In this document: piece by piece, positions 1-47,700 of the stretch
Layout: each line of letters starts with the position of its first letter
How positions within the stretch are numbered: position 1 is the stretch's first letter
Source: Mobula hypostoma
Taxonomy: Eukaryota
Direction of reading: 5' to 3'
Length of the DNA: 64,000 nucleotides
Assembly: GCF_963921235.1 (NCBI RefSeq)
Contig: NC_086108.1
Coordinates: 22,816,001 to 22,880,000, forward strand
The notes under the pieces: generated by a model
The model's input: only the letters and a program-made list of their open reading frames with translations
What the model was told of the DNA's origin: nothing
The model's database searches: none
Made by a program: the position numbers and the translations under genes

Positions 1-2060
1 CACATTTCTTCCGTACCTTTCCCTGAGAACATCTGTTCCCAATTTAAGCTTCCAAGTTCCTGCCTGATAGCCTCATAATTCCCCTTACTCCAATTAAACA
101 CTTTTCTAACTTGTCTGTTCCTATCTCTCTCCAATGCTATTGTAAAGGAGATAGAATTATGATCACTATCTCCAAAATGCTCTCCCACTGAGAGATCTGA
201 CACCCGACCAGGTTCATTTCCCAATACCAAATTAAGTACAATCTCTCCTCTTGTTGGCTTATCTACATATTGTGTCAAGAAACCTTCCTGAATACACCTA
301 ACAAACTCTACCCCATCTAAACCGTTTGCTCTAGGGAGATACCAATCGATATTTGGGAAATTAAAATCTCCCACCACGCCAACTCTGATTATTACTCCTT
401 TTCAGCATCTGTTTCCCTATCTGCTCCTCGATATCCCTGTTACTACTGGGCGGTCTATAAAAATCACCCAGTAGAATTATTGACCCCTTCCTGTTCCTAA
501 CCTCCACCCACAGAGACTCCGTAGACAATCCCTCCATGACATTCACCTTTTCTGCAGCCATGACACTATCTCTGATCAACAGTGCCATGCCCCACCTCTT
601 TTGTCTCTCTCCCTATCCTTTCTGAAACACCAAAACCCGGCACTTGAAGTAACCATTCCTGTCCCTGAGCCATCCAAGTCTCCGTAATGGCCACCACATC
701 ATAGCTCTAAGGTCATCCGCTTTGTTCACAATACTCCTTGTGTTAAAACAGACACATCTCAAACCGTCGGTCTGAGCATGTCCCTTCTTTATCACCTACC
801 TATCCTCCCTCACACACTGTCTACAAGCTTTCTCTATTTGTGAGCCAACCGCCTCTTCCCCAGTCTCTTCAATTCGGTTCCCACCCCCAACAATTCTAAT
901 TTAAACTCTCCCCAGTAGCCTTAGCAAACCTTCCCGCCAGGATATTGGCCCCCCTGGGATTCAAGTGCAACCTGTCCTTTTTGTACAGGTCACACCTGCC
1001 CCAAAACAGGTCCCAATGATCCAGAAATCTGAATCCCCGCCCCGTGCTCCAATCCCTCAGCCACGCATTTATCCTCCACCTCAATGTCACGTGGCACAGG
1101 CAGTAATCCCAAGATTACTACCTTTGCGGTCCTGCTTCTTAACTTCCTTCCTAGCTCCCTGTAGCCTGTTTTCAGGACCTTTTCCCTTTTCCTACCTATG
1201 TCGTTGGTACCAATATGTACTACGACCTCTGGCTGTTCTCCTTCCCACTTCAAGATATTGTGGACGCAATCAGAAACATCCTGGACCTTGGCACCTGGAA
1301 GGGAAACTACCATCCGAGTTTCTTTCCTGCATCCACAGAATCGCCTGTCTGACCCCCTAACTATAGAGTCCCCTATCACTGCTGCCTTTCTCTTCCTTTC
1401 CCTACCCTTCTGAGCCACAGGGACAGACTCTGTGCCAGCGGCACGGCCACTGTTGCTTCCCCCAGGTAGGCTGTCCCTCCCCCAACAGTACTCAAAACAG
1501 GAGTACTTATTGTTCAGGGGGATAGCCACAGGGGTATTCTCTAGTACCTGACTCTTCCCTTCTCTCTCCTGACTGTGACCCACTTGTCCGTCTCCCGAGG
1601 CCCCGGAGCGACCGCCTGCCTATGACTCCTTTCTATCACCTCCTTGCTCTCCCTGACCAGACGAAAGTCATCGAGCTGCAACTCCAGTTCCCTAGTGTGG
1701 TCCCTTAGGAGCTGCAGCTCGACACACTGGGTGCAGATATGGCCATCCGGGAGGCTGTGAGACTCCAGGACTTCCCACATCTGACACCGAGCACAGAACA
1801 CCAGCCTCACACACATACTTCCTCCTTTCCGCAAATAACACAGGTGAACCTACCTTGCCTCGTTCCATTACCACCCAAGCCCGTTGAGCCAAAGCCCTCA
1901 CACTCCACTGGCTGTTCCAAATGCTGCCTGCTGGATATGGCGGTCTTCTTTTTAAACTTTTTTCGCTCTACTGGCTGACATCACGTGCCTGCACAGTACT
2001 GCCTCTCTTTACCCTGAGTAGTAAAATGCCTTCTCTCCGAAAATCCTTAGCCATTCCACT
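1..2060 (-). mobile_element. CR1-clade LINE, 5' portion (5'UTR, ORF1, APE endonuclease start of ORF2); continues off the left edge
   Basis: Minus-strand ORF fragments: ORF1 pieces at 896-1834; ORF2 endonuclease start 'LRCVCFNTRSIVNKADDL' (613-795) and 'STESLWVEVRNRKGSIILLGDFYRPP' (361-588). Broken by frameshifts and stops. Confidence 0.9.
896..1834 (-). pseudogene. CR1 ORF1: N-terminal Cys-rich zinc-finger/coiled-coil plus SGNH-hydrolase (esterase) domain, frameshifted
   Basis: CARCQM...HICTQCVELQLL (1541-1834); SGNH blocks AVIGDSIVRG, LPGAKV, HIGTNDI (990-1583) and KDRLHLN (896-1090). Confidence 0.88.
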
Positions 2061-7697: not shown

Positions 7698-10026
7698 CGT
7701 TAGTCTACACTGTTGAAGACACTTGCAGAATGCCATAAGTTCGAGAGTTTTGGGGCAGAAGTGAGTGCTGTTTCTATTACTAAGGAGAAGATGCATGGGA
7801 AGCTGAAAAATCTGAAGGTAGGTAAGTCATCCGGACCAGATGGACTACACCTGAGGGTTCTAAAAGAGGTGGCTGAAAAGGTTGTGGAGGTATTGGTAAT
7901 AATCTTTCAAGAATCACTGGATTCTGGAATGTTTTTGGAGGACTGGAAAATTGCAAATATCACTCCACTCTTTAAGAAAGGAAGGAGGCAGAAGAAAGGA
8001 AATTATAGGCCAGTTAGCCTCACTTCATTGGTTGGGAAGACTTTGGAGTCAGTTATTAAGGATGAGGTTTCAGGGTACTTGGAGACACATGAAGAAGTTG
8101 GCCAATGTCAGCATGGTTTCCTTAAGGGGAGATCTTGCCTGACAAATCTGTTGTAATTCTTTGAGGATGTAGCAGTCTAGATAGACAGAGGAGATTCAGT
8201 GGATATTGTTTACTTGGATTTTCAGAAGGCCTTTGACAAGATGCCGTACATGAAGTTGCTTATGAAGGTAAGAGCCCATGGTATTAAAGGAAATATGCTA
8301 GCATAGATGGAAGGAGGCAGCGAGTGGGAATAATGGGGGCCTTTTCTGGTTGGCTGCTGACAACAAGTTGTGTTCCACATGAGGCAGTAATTGGACCTCT
8401 TCTTTTCATGTTGTAAGTCAACTATCTGGGTGATGGAATTGATGGCCTTTTGGCCAAGATTGCAGATGATGCAAAGATAGGTGGAGGGGTAGGTATTGTT
8501 GAGGAAGTAGGGAGTCTACAGAAGGATTTAGATTGGGAGAATGGGCAAAGCAGTGGCAGATGGAATAGCATGTATGGAAGAGTATGGTCATGCATTTTGG
8601 GAGAAGGAATAAAGGTGTACACTATTTTCTAAGTGGGAAAAAAAACTGAGAAATCAGAGGTGCAAAGGGACTTGGAAGTCCGTATGCAGGATTCCCTAAA
8701 GGTTAATTTGCAGGTTGAGTTGATGGTAAGAAAGGCAAATGCAATGTTAGCATTCATTTTGAGAGGACTAAAAAATAAGAGCAAGGATGTGATGCTGAGG
8801 CTTTATAAGCCATTGGTGAGGCTGCACCTGGAGTGTTGTGATCAATTTTTGGCCCCTTATCTAAGAAAAGATATGCTGACAATGGAAAGGGTCCAAAGGA
8901 GGTTCACAAGAATGATTCCGGGAATGAAAGGGTTAACATATCAGGAGCGTTTGGTGGCTTTGCGACTGAACTCACTGGAGTTTAGAAGAATGAGTGGGGA
9001 GGGATCTTATTGAAACCTATTTAATATTGAAATGTCTAGACAGTCTGGATGTGGAGAGGATGTTTTCTATAGTGGATGAGCCTAGGATCAGAGGGCACAG
9101 CCTCAGAATAGAGGGATGTCCATTTAAAACAGAGATGAGAAGGAATTTCTTTTGCCAAAGGTGGTGAATCTGTGATACGCATTGCCACAGATGGCAGTGG
9201 AGGTCAAGATATTGATTACATGTAAAGCAGAGTTGATAGGAGAATGTGGTTGAGAGGGATAATAAATCGACCATGATGGAATGGTGGAGCAGAGTCAATG
9301 GGCCAAGTGTCCTAATTCTGCTCCTTTAATCTTATGGTGTGTGTGAAAATATCCAGAATGAATGTAGGACTGCTCATGGACAACAGACGAAGCATTTGAC
9401 TAGAGTTTGAAGACAAATGGGTCTTTAATCAATGTTTTGCTTTGTATTCACCAGTGAGAGTGACCTTCATGAATGTGAGGTCAGTGTAGAACATGCTGAT
9501 ATGCTGGAAAATGTTCAGGTTAGGAAAGAGCATTTGAATTGCTGTACCACACCAAGGTAACATAGAAGGATAGAAAACACCTCCTTTGATGAGTGGTCAG
9601 ACCAAATAGGTTAAACTTAGTTAGAACTATGCACTTGAAAAGCTTCCTTAACTAAAGAACTTGGATATCTGGAATTCATTCTGAAATGTTGAGACTAGTC
9701 AATTTACACTTTTAAATAGATTTTTCGTGGCAGGTTTAAGAGGAATAGGTGCTCAAGTTGGGAATGTGGAAATAAGACTTAGAATTATCTACATTTCACA
9801 AGGAATGATGTGTCAGTTGCTAAGTGATCTGCTGTCAGACCTGTGTTTCTGATCAGTTCAAGTTCAAATTTAATGTTATTCAACCGCTAACCAAAACAAT
9901 GTTCCTCTGGACCAAGGTGCACAGCACAGTGTATATAACTCACACACATTATATAAAGTATTATTACCACAAACAATAGAATGTATTCCAGAAGATTGAC
10001 ATTTAGTGTAAGGTGCAATTACAAGA

Positions 10027-12410
10027 CAAGATTCAGGATTCAAGATTGTTTCATATCATTTCCAGTACACAGGTGTAAAGGAGAACAAAATCATTGCTAC
10101 TCCAGATCTGATGCAGCATGAAAAATACAATAAGATAAAGAACATAATAATAAAAAAAGCACAATAAATATAAATAAATTAGATAACATGTACATTGACT
10201 GTATGTCTATAAAGTGATGCTGGGTACAGGAGTGTCAGTACACAAGGTGACTCTAATGGGAAATGATAAAGTCATGATGGTGATGGTGGGGTGTGGAGAG
10301 AGGTGGGTTAGTGTGTGAAGAAGGTATTGATCAGCCTTACCTCCTGGGGAAAGAAACTGCTTTTGAGTCTGGTGGTCCTGGCTTGGATGCTGTCCAGCCT
10401 CCTACCTGAGGGGAGTAGGACAAATAGTCCATGGGCAGGACGGATCGGATCCTTCATGATTTTGCTGCCTTTTTTCTGGCGCCTTTCTGTGTATATGTCC
10501 TTGATGATGGGTAGGCTGGTGCCAGTGATGCGTTGGGCAGTTTTGACTACTTGCTGCAGATACTTACTGTCCGCTGCAGTGCAGTTTCCGTACCATGCAG
10601 TGATGCAGCATGTTAGGATGCTCTCTACTGTGCATCTACAGAAGGAAATGAGTATAGATGTGCATAGTCCAGCCCTCTTCAGCCTCCTCAGAAAGTAGAG
10701 GCAATGGTGAGCTTTCTTGATTCTGGAGAATGTGTTCTGGGGCCATGACAGTGTGTGCACTCCCAAGAGTTCAAAACTGCTTGTAATTTCCACTGCTGTG
10801 CCACCGATGTGAAGAGGTGGGTGAATGGTGAGAGTGCACCAGAAGTTGATAACTCTCTCCTTTGTCTTATTGACACTAAGGAAGAGGTGATTTGCCTGCA
10901 CCAGGCCTTGAGTTCTTCTGCTTCCTCTCAAAGGGCCAACTCATCATTGGTGATGAGCCCCACCACTGTTATGTCATTGGCGTCCTTGACAATGTGATTA
11001 CTCGGCTGCTTGACCGTGCAGTCGTGTGTGAGCTGAGTGTACAGTAATAGGCTCAGCACACAGCCCTGGGTGGCACCGGTATTGATGACGATGGGGAGGG
11101 AGGAGCGGTTCTGCATCCTGACTATCTGAGGTCTGTTGGTGCACAGTGCTGTATTTAGAATAAAGAGTCGGCATTTGGTCAGCAAGGTCTGTGGGACAAG
11201 TTTTGAATGCTGAACTGAAATCCAGAAACTGCATTCTGACATTAAGTGCCCTTGTTTTCTAGGTGTGTCAGGGCCAGGTGCATGACAGATGCTATGGCAT
11301 CTGTGTAGAGCAGTTCTGTCAGTAAGCATATTGGTGAGTGTCCTGTGTGCCAGAAATGGAGCTTTTGATGTGTGCTGTTACCAGCCATTCAAAGCATTTC
11401 ATGATGATTGGCGTCATTGCCACCGGACAGTAGTCATTTAGTTCTGAAAGTGTAGAGTTCTTTGGTATGGGGATGATGGGTGGGTGAAGTGTTGAAGGTG
11501 TCCAAAAAGACATTAGTCAGCTGGTGTGCATACTCCCTGAGTCCTTGGCTTGGGATGTTGTCTGGCCCAGAATCTTGTGTTGCATGCCTCAGACATGCAT
11601 ACAAGTTGTTTAGCGTGCTGGGAAGGGAGGCGTCACTGTTATAGTCATTACTGGTACATTGGTTTATTGGATAGATGTTCCTGAATTTTTTGTGCGTAGG
11701 CAGTCTTCGCCCTCTTGATACCTAAGATAAAGTTTCTTCTGACTGTTACATCTCTAGACTTATCATCTTGGGATTTTAGTAGGGAGCACACCTCTGTGAT
11801 CAGGGCTTCTGGATGGGCCGTGAGATGACTGTTCTTGGGTACTGATGTCATCTACACAGTTACAGGTGAAGGCATTGTCAGATGTGGCATATTCCTTGAG
11901 GCCTGTGGCTTATTTGTTCGTGGAGGCCTCCGTGAACATCTGCCAGTTAGTCCATTGAAAACAGTCCTGAAGCATAGAGATTGCCTCGTTAGGCCATACA
12001 GTGATGGTCCTCTTGACCGATTTCTCCATTTTCAGCAGCAGTCAGTATGATGGCATTAACATCATGGAGATGTGATCAGAGAGGCCAAGATGAGGGCATG
12101 GGATGGCTTTGTAAGTATTACATCTGATTGTACAAACATGATCGACACTGTTTGTTCCCCTAGTGGCCATGGTGACATGTTGATGGAATTTGGGTAAAAT
12201 GTCCTCTGGGTTAACATGATTGAAGTCTCCTGCAATTATGAAGAGTCTGCCCAGATGTTTGTTTTGTAGAGAGTGATGATACTGTAAAGCTCTCCCAGTG
12301 CGTCCTTGGCGTTTGTGCTCGGGGGATGTAGACAACGGTGAGGAACAGAACAGTAAACTCCCTGAGCAGGTAATGTGGTCAGCATTTAATTGTAAGAAGT
12401 TCAATTGCCT
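10027..12410 (-). mobile_element. Rex1/Babar-like LINE, decayed and internally deleted
   Basis: EN motifs 'FIIAGDFNH' and 'PHLGLSDH'; RT motifs '[18 protein letters not shown]', 'FLDFSSAF', 'TGATQGCVLSLLLY'; C-terminus 'LYFLRRLKRAGL...ESILTCCITAWYGNC...ARTTRLKSSFFP'; short (caagatt)n-like tail near 10027-10050. Confidence 0.88.
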
Positions 12411-12559: not shown

Positions 12560-12828
12560 CTGTAAGGAATTTGTAAGTCCTCCCCATGGAATGTGTGGGT
12601 TTCCTCCAGGGGCTCTGGTTTCTCCATGGAATGTGTGGGTTTCCTCTGGGGGCTCCAGTTTCCCCATGGAATGTGTGAGTTTCCTCCCACAGTTCAGATA
12701 CATACCGGTTAGTAGGTTAATTGGTGATTGTAAATTGTCCCTTGATGAGGCTAGGGTTAAATCAGAGGTTGCTGGCTGGCACGGCTCCAAGGGCCCATTC
12801 TACACTTTACTTCTAAATAAATAGATAA
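12560..12828 (+). mobile_element. SINE fragment (V-SINE-like core) with an internal 40-bp triplication
   Basis: Motif 'tgtgtgggtttcctcc...gctccagtttcc...cctcccacagt' followed by 'taattggtgattgtaaattgtcc' and an A-rich end 'taaataaatagataa'; 40-bp units start at 12581, 12621 and 12661. Confidence 0.6.
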
Positions 12829-18421: not shown

Positions 18422-18513
18422 AGCTCCAACCTGCTGATCCCCACCTTGTCGCCTGCCCTAACAACAGCTCCAACCTGCTGATCCCTGCCCTGTCACCTGC
18501 CCTAACAACAGCT
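18422..18513. repeat. 44-bp tandem duplication
   Basis: agctccaacctgctgatccc...cctgccctaacaac occurs at 18422 and 18466 with a few mismatches. Confidence 0.9.
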
Positions 18514-19139: not shown

Positions 19140-19715
19140 TCATCATAGCAGGCAGGAGTGGAAGAGGGTGTGCATGGAAGTGAGGATAAGCTCCAATTGC
19201 ATGCACCTCAATTAGCCTATGACAACAAGTCCACCTCCTGGCATTCACATATGGCTTAGTTACTAAGCCTGGCAGAACTATTTCTACTGACAGGAGGAGG
19301 GGCAAAAGCGGGTTACTGACACCTTATAATCAGTCACTTTGGGCAGATGGGGTTTGTCAGCCATGGTTGGCATCTCTCCTAGGAGAAGGAAAACTCTTAA
19401 CCTCAAATTTTTGCTGCCTTGTGGCTGTACCCACTCATGAGGAAGGTTTTAGGAGTAAACCCTCTCTGGAATTAGAACCCCTAAGGCAGTCCTCTGTTGA
19501 GTTCAACACTGTCTGGAAACTCCTGCAATACTGCTGGTGCCAAACCATGTCGGTCTCTGCTGTTCCTCTGGATTCATCAGCTGTGTGGACAGGGTGAGCC
19601 TGCTACACGGACAACAGCTTGCTCTCCGTACCGTACTGCCCTGGCTTGCATACTAGCTTGCTTATCACATGACAGTCCATGGTTGACCCTGACCAAAGGA
19701 GGGCCTTTGGGCCTT
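19140..19715 (+). mobile_element. Possible RTE-related non-coding element / 5'UTR remnant
   Basis: Motif 'ctaggagaaggaaaactc' and its context resemble RTE-type 5' regions as I recall them; there is no coding support. Confidence 0.35.
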
Positions 19716-19766
19716 GTAGAAATCTGAGAGTGATACAGCATTGAAACAAGCTGTTTAGTCCAACAA

Positions 19767-20003
19767 GTCCACACTGACTATCAGTCAGCTATCTCCACAA
19801 ATCCATACACTAATCCCACTTCTTACCTGGTAGGGAACCGTCGGTGATCAGGAGGGCCGAGGTTCCAGGACGAGGCTATCCCATTGCACTTCGGGTGTGC
19901 TGACGCCTGCCATATCCCCAAATGCGGGATATTCGACTGCATAATTTGTCCACACTGACTATCAGTCAGCTATCTCCACAAATCCATACACTAATCCCAC
20001 TTC
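19767..20003. repeat. Exact 56-bp direct repeat (target-site duplication) flanking the U1 copy
   Basis: gtccacactgactatcagtcagctatctccacaaatccatacactaatcccacttc is identical at 19767-19822 and 19948-20003. Confidence 0.95.
19822..19949 (+). pseudogene. RNU1: U1 snRNA retropseudogene, divergent variant, truncated at the Sm site (no stem-loop IV)
   Basis: CTTACCTGG 5' end, TGATCA SL1 loop (U1-70K site), ATTGCAC SL2 loop (U1A site), CCCCAAATG SL3, and 'tcgactgcataatttgt' leading into the Sm site, all collinear with vertebrate U1. Confidence 0.95.
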
Positions 20004-20399
20004 ATGCTCCACAAGAGCATGGAAACATACTGCCCACGTGGTGAGAGTCTGGAATTCTCCAGCAAGAGTTTTACAGAGGCTACATCATTGGGAGTATTAA
20101 ATGAGGTGGTCAATAAACTTTTGAAAGGTTTAGGGAACTTAAGAAGACTAAAACTGTGCCCAGTACTCCCAAGTGTGTGGTCTCAGCAACAGTCAGAACC
20201 ACTGCAACAAATATTCTGTTTCTAAACCTCGCCCCTTGCAGTAATGGCCCATATGCTGTTTGCCTCAGACACATAGAGTTATCCAGCACAGAAACAAACC
20301 CTACAGCTCAACTCATCTATGTCGATAAAGGTGCCTACCTTTTCTATCTATGTATCTGTCTAAACATCTTACTAATTACTTGCTATAGGTTTCTGCTGG

Positions 20400-21272
20400 A
20401 GTCAGAGTTATATAGCACAGAAACAGGGCCTTTAGCACAACTGGTTCATTCTCAAAAAGATTCCCATCTAAGCTGGTTGAATTTGCCTATGTTTGGATCT
20501 GCATTTAAAAGCAATTTAAAATTTGTTATTGTAGCTGCCTCAACTACTTCCTCTGGTGGTTATTTGAGATACCTACTGCAATTTGTTTATATAAGGCATT
20601 GATCAGACTGCAGTTGCAGTATTGCGAGCAGTTTTGGGTCCCTTATCTAAGAAAGGATATTTTGGCATTGGAGAGGGTCTAGAGGAGGTTCATGAGAATG
20701 ATCCCAGGAATGGAAGGGTTAATGTATGATGGGCAGTTGATGGCTCTGGGCCTGACTCGCTAGAGTTTAGAAGAATGGTGGGGTTGGGGGGGTGGGCTAT
20801 CTCATTCAAACCTACCAAATATTGAAACACCTGTATTGGGTGGATGTGGTGAGGGTGTTTCCTATTGTGGAAGAGTCTAGGACTCCAGAGGGCACAGCCT
20901 TAGAATAGAAGAACATCCCTTTAGAATAGAGATTAGGAGGAATTTCTTTAGCCAGAGGGTTGTGAATCTGTGGAATTCATTGCCATGGACAATTGTGGAG
21001 GCCAAGTCATTGGGTATGTTTGAAGCAAAGGTTGATAGGTTCTTGATTAGTCAGGCCATCAAAGGTTAGAGGGAGAATGGGGTTGACACAGCTAATAAAT
21101 CAGTCATGATGGAATGGCAGAGCTGACTGGATGGGCTGGATGGCCAAAGTCTGCTCCTGTTCTTACGGCCTTATGGCCTGTGGTCTTAAGTGTTGCCCTT
21201 CAAGTTCCTGTTAAATCTTTCCCTTCTCACTTTAAACCTATACCCTCCTGATCCCCCATCCCTTGGGAAAAG
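20400..21272 (-). mobile_element. CR1 3' tail fragment (minus), split by a plus-strand CR1 fragment
   Basis: Minus-strand tail sequence at 20400-20575 ('gcctcaactacttcctctggtgg') resumes at about 21190 ('ttgcccttcaagttcctgttaaatctttcccttctcac...ccttgggaaaag'), collinear with the copy at 31440-31730. Confidence 0.6.
20580..21190 (+). mobile_element. CR1 3' fragment (5'-truncated insertion)
   Basis: Aligns by eye with 8800-9340 ('ccttatctaagaaaggat', 'gagggcacagcct', 'aggaatttctttagccagagggt'); ends in a (cttatgg)-like tail. Confidence 0.85.
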
Positions 21273-25000: not shown

Positions 25001-26925
25001 TTACTTCTCCTGAAGTTAATAATCAGCTCACTGGAATTGCTGATGTTGAGTAAGAGGTTGCATTTATGGAACCACTCAGCCAGATTTTCAACCTCCCTCC
25101 CAGATGCTTATTTGCCACCACCTTTGATTTGGCCTGCTTGCATTAAGAAAAAGAAGATAATTAAGGAGATGGTCGCTTCACTTATGGATAAAGGAGGGAA
25201 ATTGTGGCTGGAGTAGCTGAGGTACTAAATGAGTACTTTGTTTTGATATTTACTGAGGAGAAGGATTTGGAAGATAGTGATGGTGTTGTGGAGCATGCTG
25301 GGAGATAAAGGAGGAGGTAGGCAGTGGTGGGTCTTCTGAAAAGCATTAAGGTGGATAAATCCCCAGGGCCAAATAGCATTTACCCCAGATTATTGAAAAA
25401 CCAGGTGAGGAGATTACTGGGGCTTTGATGAAGATTCTTGTATCCTCACTAGCAACAGACAAGGCCCCAAAAGACTGAAAAGTGGCAAATGCTATTTCTT
25501 TAGTCTGGTAGAAAGGAAGCTCATGGAGAGGATACTGAGGGAAATGATTATGGTTAGGGCTACGTACATGTGGAAAAGCATGGCCTGCTTAGGGACAGTC
25601 AGCATAGTTCTGTCATGCCTTATGACCCTGATCATGTTTGTTGAGGTAACAAATGAGTTTGAAGAGTGTACGACAGTGGATGTTATCTGTCTGGACATTA
25701 GTAAGGCATTTGATAAGGTCCCTCATGGAAGGTTGATTCACAAGATAAAGATGCATGGGATCCAGGGTGAATTTCAAGTTTGGATTCAGAACTGGCTTGC
25801 CCATAGAAGAGAGAGATAGTGTTGTAGTCTATTATTCTAGCTGGAGGGCCATGACTAGTGGTATTCCACAAGGATCATTGCTGAGATCTCTGTTGTCTGT
25901 TATATATATATCAATAATTTGAGTTAAAATGTAGATGGGTGGACTAGCAAGTTTGCAGATGACACCATCATTGGTGGAGTTGTAGTCAGTGTAAAGGACT
26001 ATTAAAGAGTATAGCAGGATATAGAACAGTTGCTGATATGGCCAGAGACATGGCAGATGGAGTTTAATCTGGGTAAATGCGAGATGTTGTACTTTAGAAG
26101 ATCAAATGGAAAGAGAAAGTACACAATATTAGACCCCTTAGTAGTGTTGAAATACAGTGATCTTAGGAACAGGTGCACTGCTCTGCCGAGCATTGTGAGC
26201 ATGGTATGTTGGCACCAGAATGTGTGGCAACACTTGTGGGCTGCCCCAAAAACACCCTCATGTCTGTTGGTTGTGAACTCAAACAATGCATTTCACTGTA
26301 TGTTTAGATGCATACAGTACATGACAACCAAACTTGAAGCTCGCATCTTGCAAGTAGCTTTGCAAGTGGTAAAGAAGGTGTATGGCATGCCAGCCTTCAT
26401 TAGTAGAGGTGTTAAGTTTAAGACTAAGCAAGTCATGCTGCAGCTGTATAAAATGTCAGATCACACTTGAAACTTTGCGTTCAGTTCTGATCACCCGAGG
26501 ATCTGGACTCTGTGGAGAGGGCATAGAGGAGGCTTACCAGGCTGCTGCCTGGAATAGAGGGGATGAGCTAAGGAAAGTTAGAATAAACCCGGATTGTTCT
26601 TCTCAAATAATGGAGGTTAGGGGAGATCTGATAGAGGTTTTTAAAATTAAGAGGGGTAGATCAGGTAGACAGTAAGAATTCTTTCCCCAGGGTAGAAATG
26701 TCAAAGCTGAGGTGAGGGGTAAAGATTTTCATGTAAAGAGTGGTAGGTACCTAGACTTGTTTACCAGGGGTAGCGGTGGGAGAGGCAGGTTGGTGGAGTT
26801 AAGAGGCTTTTTAGATAGACACGTGACTATGAGGAGAGTGGAGGGGTATGGATGACATTTAGTATAAATTAGCACCGCAAAACGGTACATTATGGGCCCA
26901 ATGACCTGTCCATATTGTTCCATAT
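22060..26925 (+). mobile_element. Old near-full-length CR1 LINE with nested insertions
   Basis: ORF1 'SRVVISGLL', 'GFRFMDHW'; EN 'VLDLVLGNESGQ...GNSDH'; RT 'VDVICLDISKAFDKVPHGRLIHK', KFADD (aagtttgcagatgac, about 25950), 'WQMEFNLGKCE'; C-terminus 'RGDLIEVFKI'. Confidence 0.85.
24223..25134 (-). mobile_element. Rex1/Babar-like 3' fragment inserted into the CR1
   Basis: 'QSITGKALPTIEHIY...KAASIIRD...PGHALFSLLPSG'; tail (ttcaaag)2; candidate TSD TGCTT at 24218-24222 and 25135-25139; CR1 sequence resumes after it. Confidence 0.8.
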
Positions 26926-31414: not shown

Positions 31415-32130
31415 TAATAGAGTCATAGAGGCATAAGGCACTACAGCACAGAAACAGACCCTTCACCAGCAAGTCCATGCCGAACTGTAATTTTGCCTAA
31501 TCTTGTTCCACCCGCACCTGGACCACAGCTCTCCATACCCCTCCCACTCAGCAAACTTCTCTTAAATGCCACAATCAAACTTGCATCCACCACTTCCATT
31601 GGCAGCTCATTCAACATTTGTACCACCCTTGGAGTGAAGAAGCTTCCCTTCAGGTTCCCCTTAAATAGTTCACCTTTCACCCTTAACCTATGATCTCTAG
31701 TTCTAGTCTCACCCAACCTCGGTGGAAACAGCCTGATTGCATTATACCCCTCATAATTCTGTATACCTTTATCATATCTCCCCTCATTCTCCTATGCTCA
31801 TCACTTTTAAGTCCTAACTGTACAACTTTTCCCTATAACTCCGGTCATCAAATTCCAGCAATAGCTTTGTAAATCTTCTCTGTACATTTCAATCATATTG
31901 ATAACTTTCCTAAAGGTAGATGACCAGAACTGCAGGCAATGTTCCAAATTTGGCCTCACAAATGACTTGTGTAACTTCAACTTAACATCCCAACTACTGT
32001 ACTATTTATGAAGGCCAATGTGCCAAAAGCTCTCTTAATGACCCTATCTAGCTGTGATGCCACTGTCAATGAATTATGGATCTGTATTTCAAGATCACTT
32101 TGTTTTATCACACTCCTCAGTGCCCTTATC
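31415..32130 (-). mobile_element. CR1 3' fragment
   Basis: 'GETRTRDHRLRVKGELFKGNLKGSFFTPRVVQMLNELPMEVVDA...FKRSL'. Confidence 0.82.
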
Positions 32131-44700: not shown

Positions 44701-47700
44701 CATCTTACCATTACATTCCAACCCTATGAACTGTCGCACGCACCTTACCATTCCAAACCATCCCAATGAACTGACGTTAGCTTTCCTACCCCATGATCTG
44801 ACCCACTCACCTTAACATTGCAACCCCATGAACTGACCCACTCACATTACTGCTCCAACCCAACCCCATGAACTGACCCACTCATCTTACCATTCCAACC
44901 CCATGAACTAACCCACTCAGCTTAACACTCCAACCCCATGAACTGACCCATTCACCATACCATTCAACTCCAACCCCATGAACTGACCCACTTACCATTC
45001 CGCTCCAATCCCAGGAAATGACCCACTCCGCTTACCACTCCAACCCAATGAACTGACCAACTCACCTTACCACTCCAACCCCATGAACTGACCCACTCAC
45101 CTTACTATTCCAACCCCATGAACTGACCCACTCACCATTCCACTCCAACCCCATGAACTGATCCATTCACCTTACCATCCCATTCCAACCCCATGAACTA
45201 ACCTACTCACTTTACCATCCCAAACCAACCCTATGAACTGATCCACTCACCTTTCCATTCCACTCTAACCCCATGAACTGGCCACTCATCTTACCATTCC
45301 ATTCCAACCCCATGAACTGACGCACTCACCTTACTATCCCAACCCCAGGAAGTGACCCACTCACCTTACCATTCCAATCCAACCCAATGAACTGACCCAC
45401 TCAGCATACCATTCGAAACCAACCACAAGAACTGACCCACTCACCTTACCATTCCATTCCAATCCCCATGAACTGACCTACTCAGCTTACCACTCCAACC
45501 CCATGAACTGACCCACTCACCTTACCATTCCAAAACCATGAAATGACCCACTCAGCTTACCATTCCAACCCCATGAACTGACCCACTCATCTTACCATTC
45601 CAACACCATGAACTGACCCATTCACCATTCCCTCCAACCCCATGAACTGAACCACTCAACTTACACATCAACCCCATGAACTGACCCACTCACCTTACCA
45701 TCCCAACCCCAGGAAGTGACCCACTCACCTTACCATTCCAATCCACCCCAATGAACTGACCCACTCAGCATACCATTCGAAACCAACCACAAGAACTGAC
45801 CCACTCACCTTACCATTCCATTCCAATCCCCATGAACTGACCTACTCAGCTTACCACTCCAACCACATGAACCGACCCACTCACCTTACCATTCCACACC
45901 GACCCCACGAACTGACCCACTCACCTGACCATTCCATCCCCCTAAACTGACCCACTCACCTTACCATTCGAACCGCATGAACTGACCAACTCACCTTTCC
46001 ACTCCAACCCCATGAACTGACCCACTTACCATTCCGCTCCAACCCCAGGAAATGACCCACTCCGCTTACCACTCCAACCCAATGAACTGACCAACTCACC
46101 TTACCACTCCAACCCCATGAACTGACCCACTCACCTTACTATTCCAACCCCATGAACTGACCCACTCACCATTCCACTCCAACCCCATGAACTTATCCAT
46201 TCACCTTACCATCCTATTCCAACCCCATGAACTGACCTACTCACTTTACCATCCCAACCCAACCCCATGAACTGATCCACTCACCTTTCCACTCCAATCC
46301 CATGTACTGGCCACTCATCTTACCATTCCATTCCAATCCCATGAACTGACGCACTCACCTTATCATCCCAACCCCAGGAATGACCCACTCACCTTACCAT
46401 TCCATTCCAATCCCCATGAACTGACCCACTCACCTTACCACTCCAACCCAGCCCCATTAAATGACCCACTCACCTTACCATTCCAACCCAATGAACTGAC
46501 CTACTCAGCTTACCACTCCAACCACATGAACCGACCCACTCACTTTACCATTCCAAAGCCATGAAATGACCCACTCAGCTTACCACTCCAACCCCATGAA
46601 CTGACCCACTCACCATTCCACTCCAACCCCATGAACTGGCCACTCATCTTACCATTCCATTCCAATCCCATGAACTGACGCACTAACCTTACCATCCCAA
46701 CCCCATGAACTGACACCCTCACCTTACCATTCCACACCGGACCCCATGAACTGACCCACTCACCTGACCATTCCATCCCCCTAAACTGACCCACTCACCT
46801 TACCATTCGAACCGCATGAACTGACCAACTCACCTTTCCACTCCAACCCCATGAACTGACCCACTTACCATTCCGCTCCAACCCCAGGAAATGACCCACT
46901 CCGCTTACCACTCCAACCCAATGAACTGACCAACTCACCTTACCACTCCAACCCCATGAACTGACCCACTCACCTTACTATTCCAAGCCCATGAACTGAC
47001 CCACTCACCATTCCACTCCAACTCCATGAACTGATCCATTCACCTTACCATCCTATTCCAACTCCATGAACTGACCTACTCACTTTACCATCCCAACCCA
47101 ACCCCATGAACTGATCCACTCACCTTTCCACTCCAATCACATGTACTGGCCACTCATCTTACCATTCCATTCCAATCCCATGAACTGACGCACTCACCTT
47201 ACCATCCCAACCCCAGGAAGTGACCCACTCACCTTACCATTCCAATCCAACCCAATGAACTGACCCACTCAGCTTACCATTCCAAACCAACCACAAGAAC
47301 TGACCCACTCACCTTACCATTCCATTCCAATCCCCATGAACTGACCCACTCACCTTACCACTCCAACCCAGCCTCATTAAATGACCCACTCACCTTACCA
47401 TTCCAACCCAATGAACTGACCTACTCAGCTTACCACTCCAACCACATGAACCGACCCACTCACTTTACCATTCCAAAGCCATGAAATGACCCACTCAGCT
47501 TACCACTCCAACCCCATGAACTGACCCACTCACCATTCCACTCCAACCCCATGAACTGGCCACTCATCTTACCATTCCATTCCAATCCCATGAACTGACG
47601 CACTAACCTTACCATCCCAACCCCATGAACTGACACCCTCACCTTACCATTCCACACCGGACCCCATGAACTGACCCACTCACCTGACCATTCCATCCCC

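What the first reader, a model, noticed from the sequence alone, without database searches (positions are those of the whole stretch)
19767..20003. Tailless U1 snRNA retrocopy with an exact 56-bp target-site duplication
Seen: about 128 nt of U1, with no polyA or LINE tail, sits between two identical 56-bp repeats. It stops within the Sm site (ATAATTT|GT), where GT could belong to both U1 and the repeat, and one C is shared at the 5' junction. Known: 3'-truncated 'tailless' snRNA retropseudogenes arise by internal priming; L1-type TSDs are usually under about 20 bp, CR1 TSDs are short, and long TSDs are reported for RTE-clade elements. Inference: a very recent trans-mobilisation of U1 by a long-TSD LINE machinery, or an RNA-templated repair of a widely staggered break.
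Basis: partly seen in the sequence, partly recalled or inferred. Interest (0 to 1): 0.75.

Follow-up and report, generated by a model that had tools for sequence, protein, structure and literature searches.

The report
U1 retrocopy with long target duplication
A DNA copy of most of an unusual U1 splicing RNA was pasted into this fish genome millions of years ago and duplicated 56 bases of the landing site, several times more than jumping-gene enzymes normally duplicate; it is a real but so far single example of a known kind of copying accident.

Summary
Confirmed. U1 nt 4/5 to 129/131, tailless, lies between two identical 56-bp repeats. Public contigs settle the structure. A distant relative (about 6.6% diverged) has the empty site with one 56-mer, so the repeat is a true target duplication. 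A sister species (about 1.5%) carries both junctions, so it is neither an assembly artefact nor 'very recent'. The length fits no LINE clade in the papers read (peaks L1 13-15, RTE 10-12, L2/CR1 3-5 bp), the site is not L1-like, and 'long-TSD RTE machinery' is unsupported. Best reading: internal priming at the Sm site by a resident LINE, with a rare long, repair-shaped duplication; the rival is cDNA capture at a staggered break. It is 71-75% identical to 8 canonical fish-type U1 loci, with 9 compensatory stem changes and an intact 5'-splice-site arm, and it matches a multi-copy family seen in all three species: a candidate alternative U1 class. The scan noted a tailless U2 copy in another genome, but nothing like this.

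The parts
19767..19822 (+). 5' copy of the 56-bp target-site duplication (54-56 bp, depending on whether the 3' GT and 5' C are counted as U1)
   Evidence: 100% identical pair; single copy at the empty site of organism C (record 31); differs at 19788 and 19810 in organism B (table 3)
19822..19949 (+). U1 snRNA variant retrocopy, nt 4-131: 5'-splice-site arm, stem-loops 1-3 and part of the Sm site; no stem-loop 4, no tail
   Evidence: Rfam RF00003 96.9 bits; alignment A1; pair counts
19835..19865 (+). Stem-loop 1, rewritten by compensatory changes: 10 of 10 pairs form, 6 changed on both sides against L010; loop I differs at one otherwise invariant A
19822..19822 (+). 1-nt microhomology (C) at the 5' junction
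19948..19949 (+). 2-nt microhomology (GT) at the 3' junction, inside the Sm site; likely priming point
   Evidence: records 6 and 14 end at 19949
19948..20003 (+). 3' copy of the 56-bp target-site duplication
   Evidence: organism B contig 19858-20400 crosses this junction (record 24)
19754..19756 (+). TTT 11-13 nt upstream of the duplication; weak match to the RTE insertion signature
   Evidence: 11% of window positions show this by chance; PMC6007223 section 15

Best explanation
A tailless retrocopy of a divergent U1 snRNA, made by target-primed reverse transcription with the ORF2 protein of a resident LINE (an RTE or Tx1/L1-clade family; not identifiable from this one site). SHOWN: the pre-insertion site had one 56-mer; the insert is U1 RNA sequence only, from 3 nt short of the RNA 5' end to the Sm site; it arose after the split from organism C and before the A/B split; its source is a multi-copy, structurally conserved U1 variant. 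INFERRED: a bottom-strand nick at 19767 exposed a 3' end that paired with GU in the single-stranded Sm site, probably on U1 not yet loaded with the Sm ring, and primed cDNA. Reverse transcription ran almost to the cap. The top strand was opened or joined 54-56 bp downstream rather than the usual 10-15 bp, the cDNA was joined through a 1-nt microhomology, and fill-in duplicated the 56 bp. The long duplication is best read as a rare, host-repair-shaped outcome, not the signature of a special enzyme. The copy has no promoter, a cut Sm site and no stem-loop 4, so it is most likely dead.
For: Empty site: organism C record 31 aligns 19676-19822 then 20038-20386 with 35 record letters between, against 34 expected if empty and 215 if filled; no second contig covers 19810 in C (depth 5.25 = flank). 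Both junctions at single-copy depth in organism B (records 22, 24). The insert begins within 3 nt of the RNA 5' end and carries no gene flank. Short junction microhomology and truncation in a single-stranded segment match Group III snRNA pseudogenes (PMC4476161 section 8) and internal priming (PMC5322556). TSDs above 20 bp occur as a rare class that depends on the host cell: 1 of 25 ZfL2-2 insertions in wild-type DT40 (PMC2666801); many in one HeLa line and few in others (PMC4245944 section 8). Unchecked earlier notes report RTE and Tx1 LINEs in this genome, with RTE capturing host RNAs.
Against: 54-56 bp lies far outside the clade peaks (L1 13-15, RTE 10-12, L2/CR1 3-5 bp; PMC4245944). The site reads AA|GTCC or GT|CCAC, not TT|AAAA, and the RTE T-stretch is only a weak match (11% background). 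Human tailless snRNA copies end in purine-rich segments; this one ends in the U-rich Sm site. Only one event was examined, and no endonuclease signature ties it to any LINE.
Confidence: 0.58

Rival explanations
1. Endonuclease-independent repair: two opposite-strand nicks about 55 bp apart gave a staggered break that was filled in as a tandem duplication, with a U1 cDNA (still made by a LINE or other reverse transcriptase) captured at the joint.
For: No recognisable endonuclease site; the length fits no LINE clade; 1-2-nt microhomologies at both ends. Older insert-free tandem repeats of similar period lie nearby: 44 bp x 2.1 at 18422-18513 and 40 bp x 2.7 at 12581-12687.
Against: A clean, collinear insert running almost to the RNA 5' end, without scrambled or extra bases, is the usual picture of target-primed copies. 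The nearby tandem repeats were not shown to come from breaks. One search found no paper on this route for snRNAs (3 papers listed, none read).
Confidence: 0.25
2. A resident LINE family of this lineage routinely cuts the second strand 40-60 bp away and trans-mobilises snRNAs, so long TSDs are its signature.
For: The TSD is real. TTT at -13 fits the RTE signature loosely. An unchecked note reports frequent twin priming by RTE in this genome, which needs long 3' overhangs (e1-7812926).
Against: Published RTE TSDs are 7-15 bp (PMC6007223). Unchecked notes from this genome give 13 bp for an RTE-related insert and 16 bp for a Tx1 insert. No other exact direct repeat above 23 nt in 35.7 kb of LINE-rich sequence, though those LINEs are old and decayed.
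Confidence: 0.12
3. Not a primary insertion: the 56-mer-plus-U1 unit is a DNA-level copy, a mobile unit or an assembly artefact, or the insertion is older and organism C lost it by recombination between the repeats.
For: Loss by recombination between long TSDs has been raised for HERV-K (PMC5488345). De Bruijn contigs can collapse a repeat loop. No single listed contig spans the whole insertion in A or B.
Against: Both junctions in an independent species and sample (records 22, 24). The repeat region has near single-copy depth (24-28 against 11-13 in the flank) and is not a multi-copy unit. If older than the A/C split, an exact 56/56 match would have P about 0.025. C shows no junction contig.
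Confidence: 0.05

Closest known systems
Tailless retropseudogenes / Group III 3'-truncated snRNA pseudogenes (PMC5322556: passages and section 19; PMC4476161: passages and sections 8, 10)
   Same: Nearly complete 5' end, 3' truncation in a single-stranded segment, no tail, short 3' microhomology, flanking TSD.
   Different: TSD 54-56 bp (those screens accepted 8-35 nt); no L1 TT|AAAA site; ends in the U-rich Sm site and not in a purine-rich segment. Host is a non-therian fish, whereas PMC5322556 found tailless 5S/U2 copies only in therians and the anole among the vertebrates it screened (its species list is in a figure that was not seen).
Long-TSD (>20 bp) LINE insertions in cultured cells (PMC2666801 passages; PMC4245944 passages and section 8) and HERV-K loci with 111-250-bp TSDs (PMC5488345 passages)
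   Same: Target duplication far longer than the element's normal peak; rare.
   Different: Here the cargo is a trans-mobilised snRNA, and the event is a germline insertion fixed or shared across two species with an outgroup empty site.
Zebrafish maternal-type U1 snRNA (bioRxiv 10.1101/858944, parts 1-2 of 3 read; figures and supplements not seen)
   Same: Multi-copy U1 class with co-evolved stem pairs and unchanged pre-mRNA-binding arm.
   Different: Zebrafish maternal and somatic U1 differ by 11 nt; this copy differs by 31 of 126 from the nearest canonical fish-type loci, of which 2 appear private to the copy. Expression was not measured, and the host's own canonical U1 was not seen.
SINEU (U1/U2-headed SINEs of crocodilians; PMC4494074, part 1 of 5 read)
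   Same: U1-derived sequence spread by non-LTR machinery.
   Different: No SINE body or tail follows the U1 part here; the flanks are single-copy target DNA.
U1-tfs, truncated U1 RNAs (PMC3936765, passages)
   Same: U1 lacking stem-loop 4.
   Different: U1-tfs cover about nt 1-121/124 and lack the Sm site; this copy runs to nt 129-131, so it is not a copy of that species.

Membership tests
Tailless (Group III) snRNA retropseudogene | 5' end (almost) complete, at most 5 nt missing | tested here: met
   starts at U1 nt 4 or 5
Tailless (Group III) snRNA retropseudogene | 3'-truncated by at least 10 nt, no polyA or LINE tail | tested here: met
   ends at nt 129-131, stem-loop 4 absent, the repeat follows directly
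Tailless (Group III) snRNA retropseudogene | Flanking direct repeats are a target-site duplication | tested here: met
   empty site with one 56-mer in organism C (record 31)
Tailless (Group III) snRNA retropseudogene | TSD of L1 size (8-35 nt in the defining screen) | tested here: not met
   54-56 bp against PMC5322556
Tailless (Group III) snRNA retropseudogene | L1 endonuclease-like site (TT|AAAA) | tested here: not met
   AA|GTCC or GT|CCAC
Tailless (Group III) snRNA retropseudogene | Truncation in a single-stranded, purine-rich segment with 3' microhomology | tested here: inconclusive
   single-stranded with 2-nt microhomology, but the segment is the U-rich Sm site
Tailless (Group III) snRNA retropseudogene | Mobilised by L1 ORF2p | not testable with these tools
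   no genome held; single site
RTE-mobilised insertion | TSD 7-15 bp | tested here: not met
   PMC6007223 section 15
RTE-mobilised insertion | About 3 T's near position -10 of the TSD | tested here: inconclusive
   TTT at -13 to -11; 11% background
RTE-mobilised insertion | RTE-derived 3' tail | tested here: not met
   no sequence between U1 and the repeat
SINEU | snRNA head joined to a SINE body or tail, repeated as a unit | tested here: not met
   insert is U1 only; flanks near single-copy depth
Maternal-type (alternative) U1 snRNA class | Multi-copy variant with compensated stems and intact 5'-splice-site arm | tested here: met
   summed contig depth is only a rough guide to copy number
Maternal-type (alternative) U1 snRNA class | Coexists with a canonical U1 class in the same genome | not testable with these tools
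   canonical U1 falls under the 85% cut-off used, and human-like contigs are filtered
Maternal-type (alternative) U1 snRNA class | Expressed in oocytes or early embryos, replaced in soma | not testable with these tools
   no suitable RNA run listed

The most novel reading that the evidence does not exclude
This lineage (a ray, by unchecked earlier notes) keeps a second, germline- or egg-type U1 class about 25% divergent from canonical U1, with a rewritten stem-loop 1 and an altered U1-70K loop, and a resident non-L1 LINE copies such Sm-free snRNAs with routinely long (40-60 bp) target duplications. Such a class would have been invisible to screens capped at 30-49 bp. The divergent functional U1 class alone is more likely (about 0.4 that it is a germline-type second class) than the routine long TSD (about 0.12).
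Probability: 0.12. Interest if true: 0.75.

Novelty: new variant of a known kind. Interest (0 to 1): 0.47.

Why it matters
It is a germline, cross-species-validated case of a tailless snRNA retrocopy outside therians and lizards, without an L1 site and with a TSD longer than published screens allowed (30, 35 or 49 bp). A simple re-screen can therefore test whether long TSDs are an overlooked class and whether non-L1 LINEs make tailless copies. It also works as a molecular fossil showing that a strongly divergent but structurally intact U1 family was transcribed in the germline or early embryo. That makes the question of alternative 'maternal' spliceosomes testable in cartilaginous fish. As a single dead insertion it has no evident function.

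Tried and rejected
No whole genome is held, so the genome-wide table of U1 copies and TSD lengths could not be made. No RNA holder was listed; this is not evidence on expression. A metagenome scan with a variant-specific U1 pattern gave 0 loci, so a foreign (parasite) source was not found; it was dropped because the variant family is deep in the DNA contigs of all three organisms laid. Folding the U1 copy gave no signal against shuffles (z -0.20), so the structure argument rests on covariation, not energy. Of 17 loci, 6 were not U1 and 2 (L005, L008) lacked the 5' end; they were left out of the identity counts, and L011 (identical to L003) was left out of alignment A1. The 12-nt repeat 19223/19761 and the inverted repeats are at chance level. 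The weak U6 match at 31814-31917 (E 0.14) was taken as chance. Pre-truncated U1-tfs as template was rejected (the end points differ). Sequence, relatives and word look-ups in earlier findings gave nothing similar. The lay-reads stretch included a very high-copy repeat that crowded the tables: 33 difference rows, 64 joints, 1230 loose ends and 20493 pieces were not shown, so flanks of other U1 copies could not be read and the empty site rests on the pieces table alone. Dating in years was not attempted beyond 'millions of years': the only rate seen (7e-10 per generation, epaulette shark, PMC10587355 abstract) may not apply. Literature searches listed no paper on tailless snRNA copies or divergent U1 classes in cartilaginous fish; the library lacks most subscription journals. 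No supplements were opened; those of PMC5322556 (species list) and the closed bioRxiv files of 10.1101/858944 (U1 variant sequences) may bear on novelty.

Full report
OBSERVATION. The sequence is as described. Two 56-nt repeats, 100% identical, lie at 19767-19822 and 19948-20003. They are the only exact direct repeat above 23 nt in the 35.7 kb outside the satellite. Between them is a U1 snRNA match of 96.9 bits (gathering 69.5) that is good up to the Sm site and lacks stem-loop 4. Against complete U1 loci the insert spans nt 4/5 to 129/131: 125 nt unique, one C shared with the 5' repeat and GT shared with the 3' repeat. No polyA or LINE sequence follows. The setting is LINE-rich vertebrate DNA next to a large satellite. 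Earlier notes on this genome call it a ray (unchecked).

IS THE REPEAT A TARGET DUPLICATION? No genome is held, so I used public runs. Of 24 runs listed, I laid 4 on 19400-20400: two of organism A (one sample, possibly the source of the window), one of B and one of C. In C, one 610-nt contig aligns to 19676-19822 (record 5-167) and then to 20038-20386 (record 203-539). That leaves 35 letters between, against 34 expected for an empty site and 215 for a filled one. Depth at 19810 in C equals the flank, so no repeat-to-U1 junction contig is seen there. In B, one contig runs from the left flank through the first repeat 42 nt into U1 (19623-19864) and another from U1 through the second repeat to 20400 (19858-20400), both at single-copy depth. 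B therefore carries the insertion, and its 5' repeat differs from A's at 19788 and 19810. In A the contigs break at the repeat ends (19822, 19974), as a de Bruijn graph does at an exact repeat; depth at 19810 is about twice the flank, consistent with a junction contig, but that contig was not listed. Limits: these are contigs, C is at depth about 5, no listed piece spans the whole insertion, and most table rows were cut.

AGE. A-B divergence is 12 of 785 letters (1.5%) and A-C 32 of 484 (6.6%), in line with the word shares. An exact 56/56 match has P about 0.42 at the A-B depth and 0.025 at the A-C depth. The insertion thus falls between the two splits. It is young for a retroposon but shared by two species, not very recent, and loss in C by recombination between the repeats (raised for HERV-K in PMC5488345, passages) is unlikely.

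THE TEMPLATE IS NOT CANONICAL U1. A metagenome scan with two conserved motifs gave 17 loci, 11 of them U1. Nine had the 5' end. The window copy is 71-75% identical to 8 of these, which are 93-100% alike, and 77% to the ninth, itself a variant (L014). Their assignment as fish-type canonical U1 is by recall. The differences are not decay: 26 of 31 against L010 lie in paired columns, 9 pairs are changed on both sides, and 34 of 38 pairs form. Scattering 31 random changes gave a mean of 0.9 and at most 6 double-sided changes in 20000 trials, and a mean of 24.7 intact pairs. One search agrees (14 pairs with a change on both sides over 8 distinct rows; 0 of 500 shuffles; slid controls at most 3). 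The 5'-splice-site arm and loop II are intact; loop I has one change at an otherwise invariant A. In one search the U1 part draws contigs of summed depth 260-1260 in A, 330-610 in B and about 200 in C (first two bins only), against flanks of 11-13, 12 and 5. Among the listed rows these differ from the window only at 19911 and 19914, where nearly all read G; canonical loci have T at the second position and fall under the 85% cut-off (54 of 68 and 22 of 34). The source is therefore a homogeneous multi-copy U1 variant family, present in all three organisms. Summed depth is only a rough guide to copy number. Whether it is a second class beside a canonical U1 or the lineage's main U1 could not be told. 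Zebrafish has a tandem, egg-specific U1 class, but it differs from the somatic one by only 11 nt (10.1101/858944, parts 1-2 read). A heritable retrocopy implies transcription in germline or early embryo (inference).

MECHANISM. The insert starts 3 nt from the RNA 5' end with no gene flank and stops in a single-stranded segment with 2 nt of microhomology. This is the anatomy of 3'-truncated snRNA pseudogenes made by internal priming (PMC4476161 section 8; PMC5322556 passages). It is not a copy of U1-tfs, which cover about nt 1-121 and lack the Sm site (PMC3936765 passages). The enzyme is unresolved. The site is not TT|AAAA; a TTT at -13 loosely fits the RTE signature but occurs at 11% of positions. 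TSDs above 20 bp are known as a rare class that varies with the host cell (PMC2666801 passages; PMC4245944 section 8). I therefore favour LINE-primed copying with an atypical second-strand resolution (0.58) over cDNA capture at an endonuclease-independent staggered break (0.25), a dedicated long-TSD family (0.12) and artefact or secondary loss (0.05). Unchecked notes report RTE elements in this genome that capture host RNAs and twin-prime, with TSDs of 13 bp (RTE-related) and 16 bp (Tx1); these are leads only.

KNOWN OR NEW. It works like a tailless retropseudogene but fails two features of the L1-type class: TSD size and target motif. PMC5322556 (section 19) found tailless 5S/U2 copies only in therians and the anole among the vertebrates it screened; its species list was not seen. 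Published TSD searches were capped at 30 (PMC2912911 passages; 10.1101/2025.02.02.635956 passages), 35 (PMC5322556) or 49 bp (PMC6007223; PMC13295347 passages), so a 56-bp case would have been missed. It is not a SINEU (PMC4494074, part 1 of 5). Searches listed no paper on such copies or on divergent U1 classes in cartilaginous fish, in a library that lacks most subscription journals. The scan's earlier notes hold a tailless U2 copy in another genome without a TSD, and nothing similar by sequence.

VERDICT. Real, and validated by an empty orthologous site. A new variant of a known kind, from one event. Its interest lies in the unusually long germline TSD without an L1 signature, and in the divergent, compensated U1 family that it records. 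Interest 0.47.

Noticed in passing
window 35768-63997: 28-kb C-rich satellite, period about 35 (consensus 39 nt), about 764 copies, with signs of a higher-order repeat (rows at 46424, 47344 and 48264, spaced 920).
   Followed up: no
window about 19180-19707: Very high-copy short interspersed repeat ending about 60 nt upstream of the duplication; summed contig depth 1e4-2e5 against about 12 for single copy. Its left edge is estimated by eye; recalled resemblance to RTE-type 5' leaders, not tested.
   Followed up: partly
window 18422-18513 and 12581-12687: Insert-free tandem repeats of 44 bp (2.1 copies, 91%) and 40 bp (2.7 copies, 88%), similar in size to the 56-bp duplication.
   Followed up: no
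records 6/14 and 7/15 (organism A), record 23 (organism B): Other contigs at single-copy depth hold 113-128 nt of the same U1 variant with 7-18 differences: further dispersed copies whose flanks could not be read.
   Followed up: partly
L014:87-212 (minus strand): A complete, divergent U1 gene in a metagenome contig shares 8 non-canonical letters with the window copy, including three swapped pairs (null mean 3.7, P 0.014, overstated because pairs are not independent): possible old second U1 class or convergence. L008 is a third variant.
   Followed up: partly
window 19774-19788 and 19955-19969: The duplicated 56-mer holds a perfect 6-bp DNA hairpin 7 nt from its start (-4.4 kcal/mol); role unknown.
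   Followed up: no
window 19911 and 19914: The two listed positions where the copy differs from the deep source family; 19911 breaks a stem-loop 3 pair that the family keeps, as expected for decay after insertion.
   Followed up: yes
window 20385: Organism B has 25 extra letters here (table 4).
   Followed up: no
window 990-1619 (-), 7704-8156 (+), 10308-10940 (-), 25409-25819 (+): Decayed LINE frames: a GDSL esterase-like ORF1, two RT fragments and an ALKBH8_N-type LINE tail (4 of 11 frames scanned had Pfam matches); CR1- and Rex1/L2-type by recall.
   Followed up: partly
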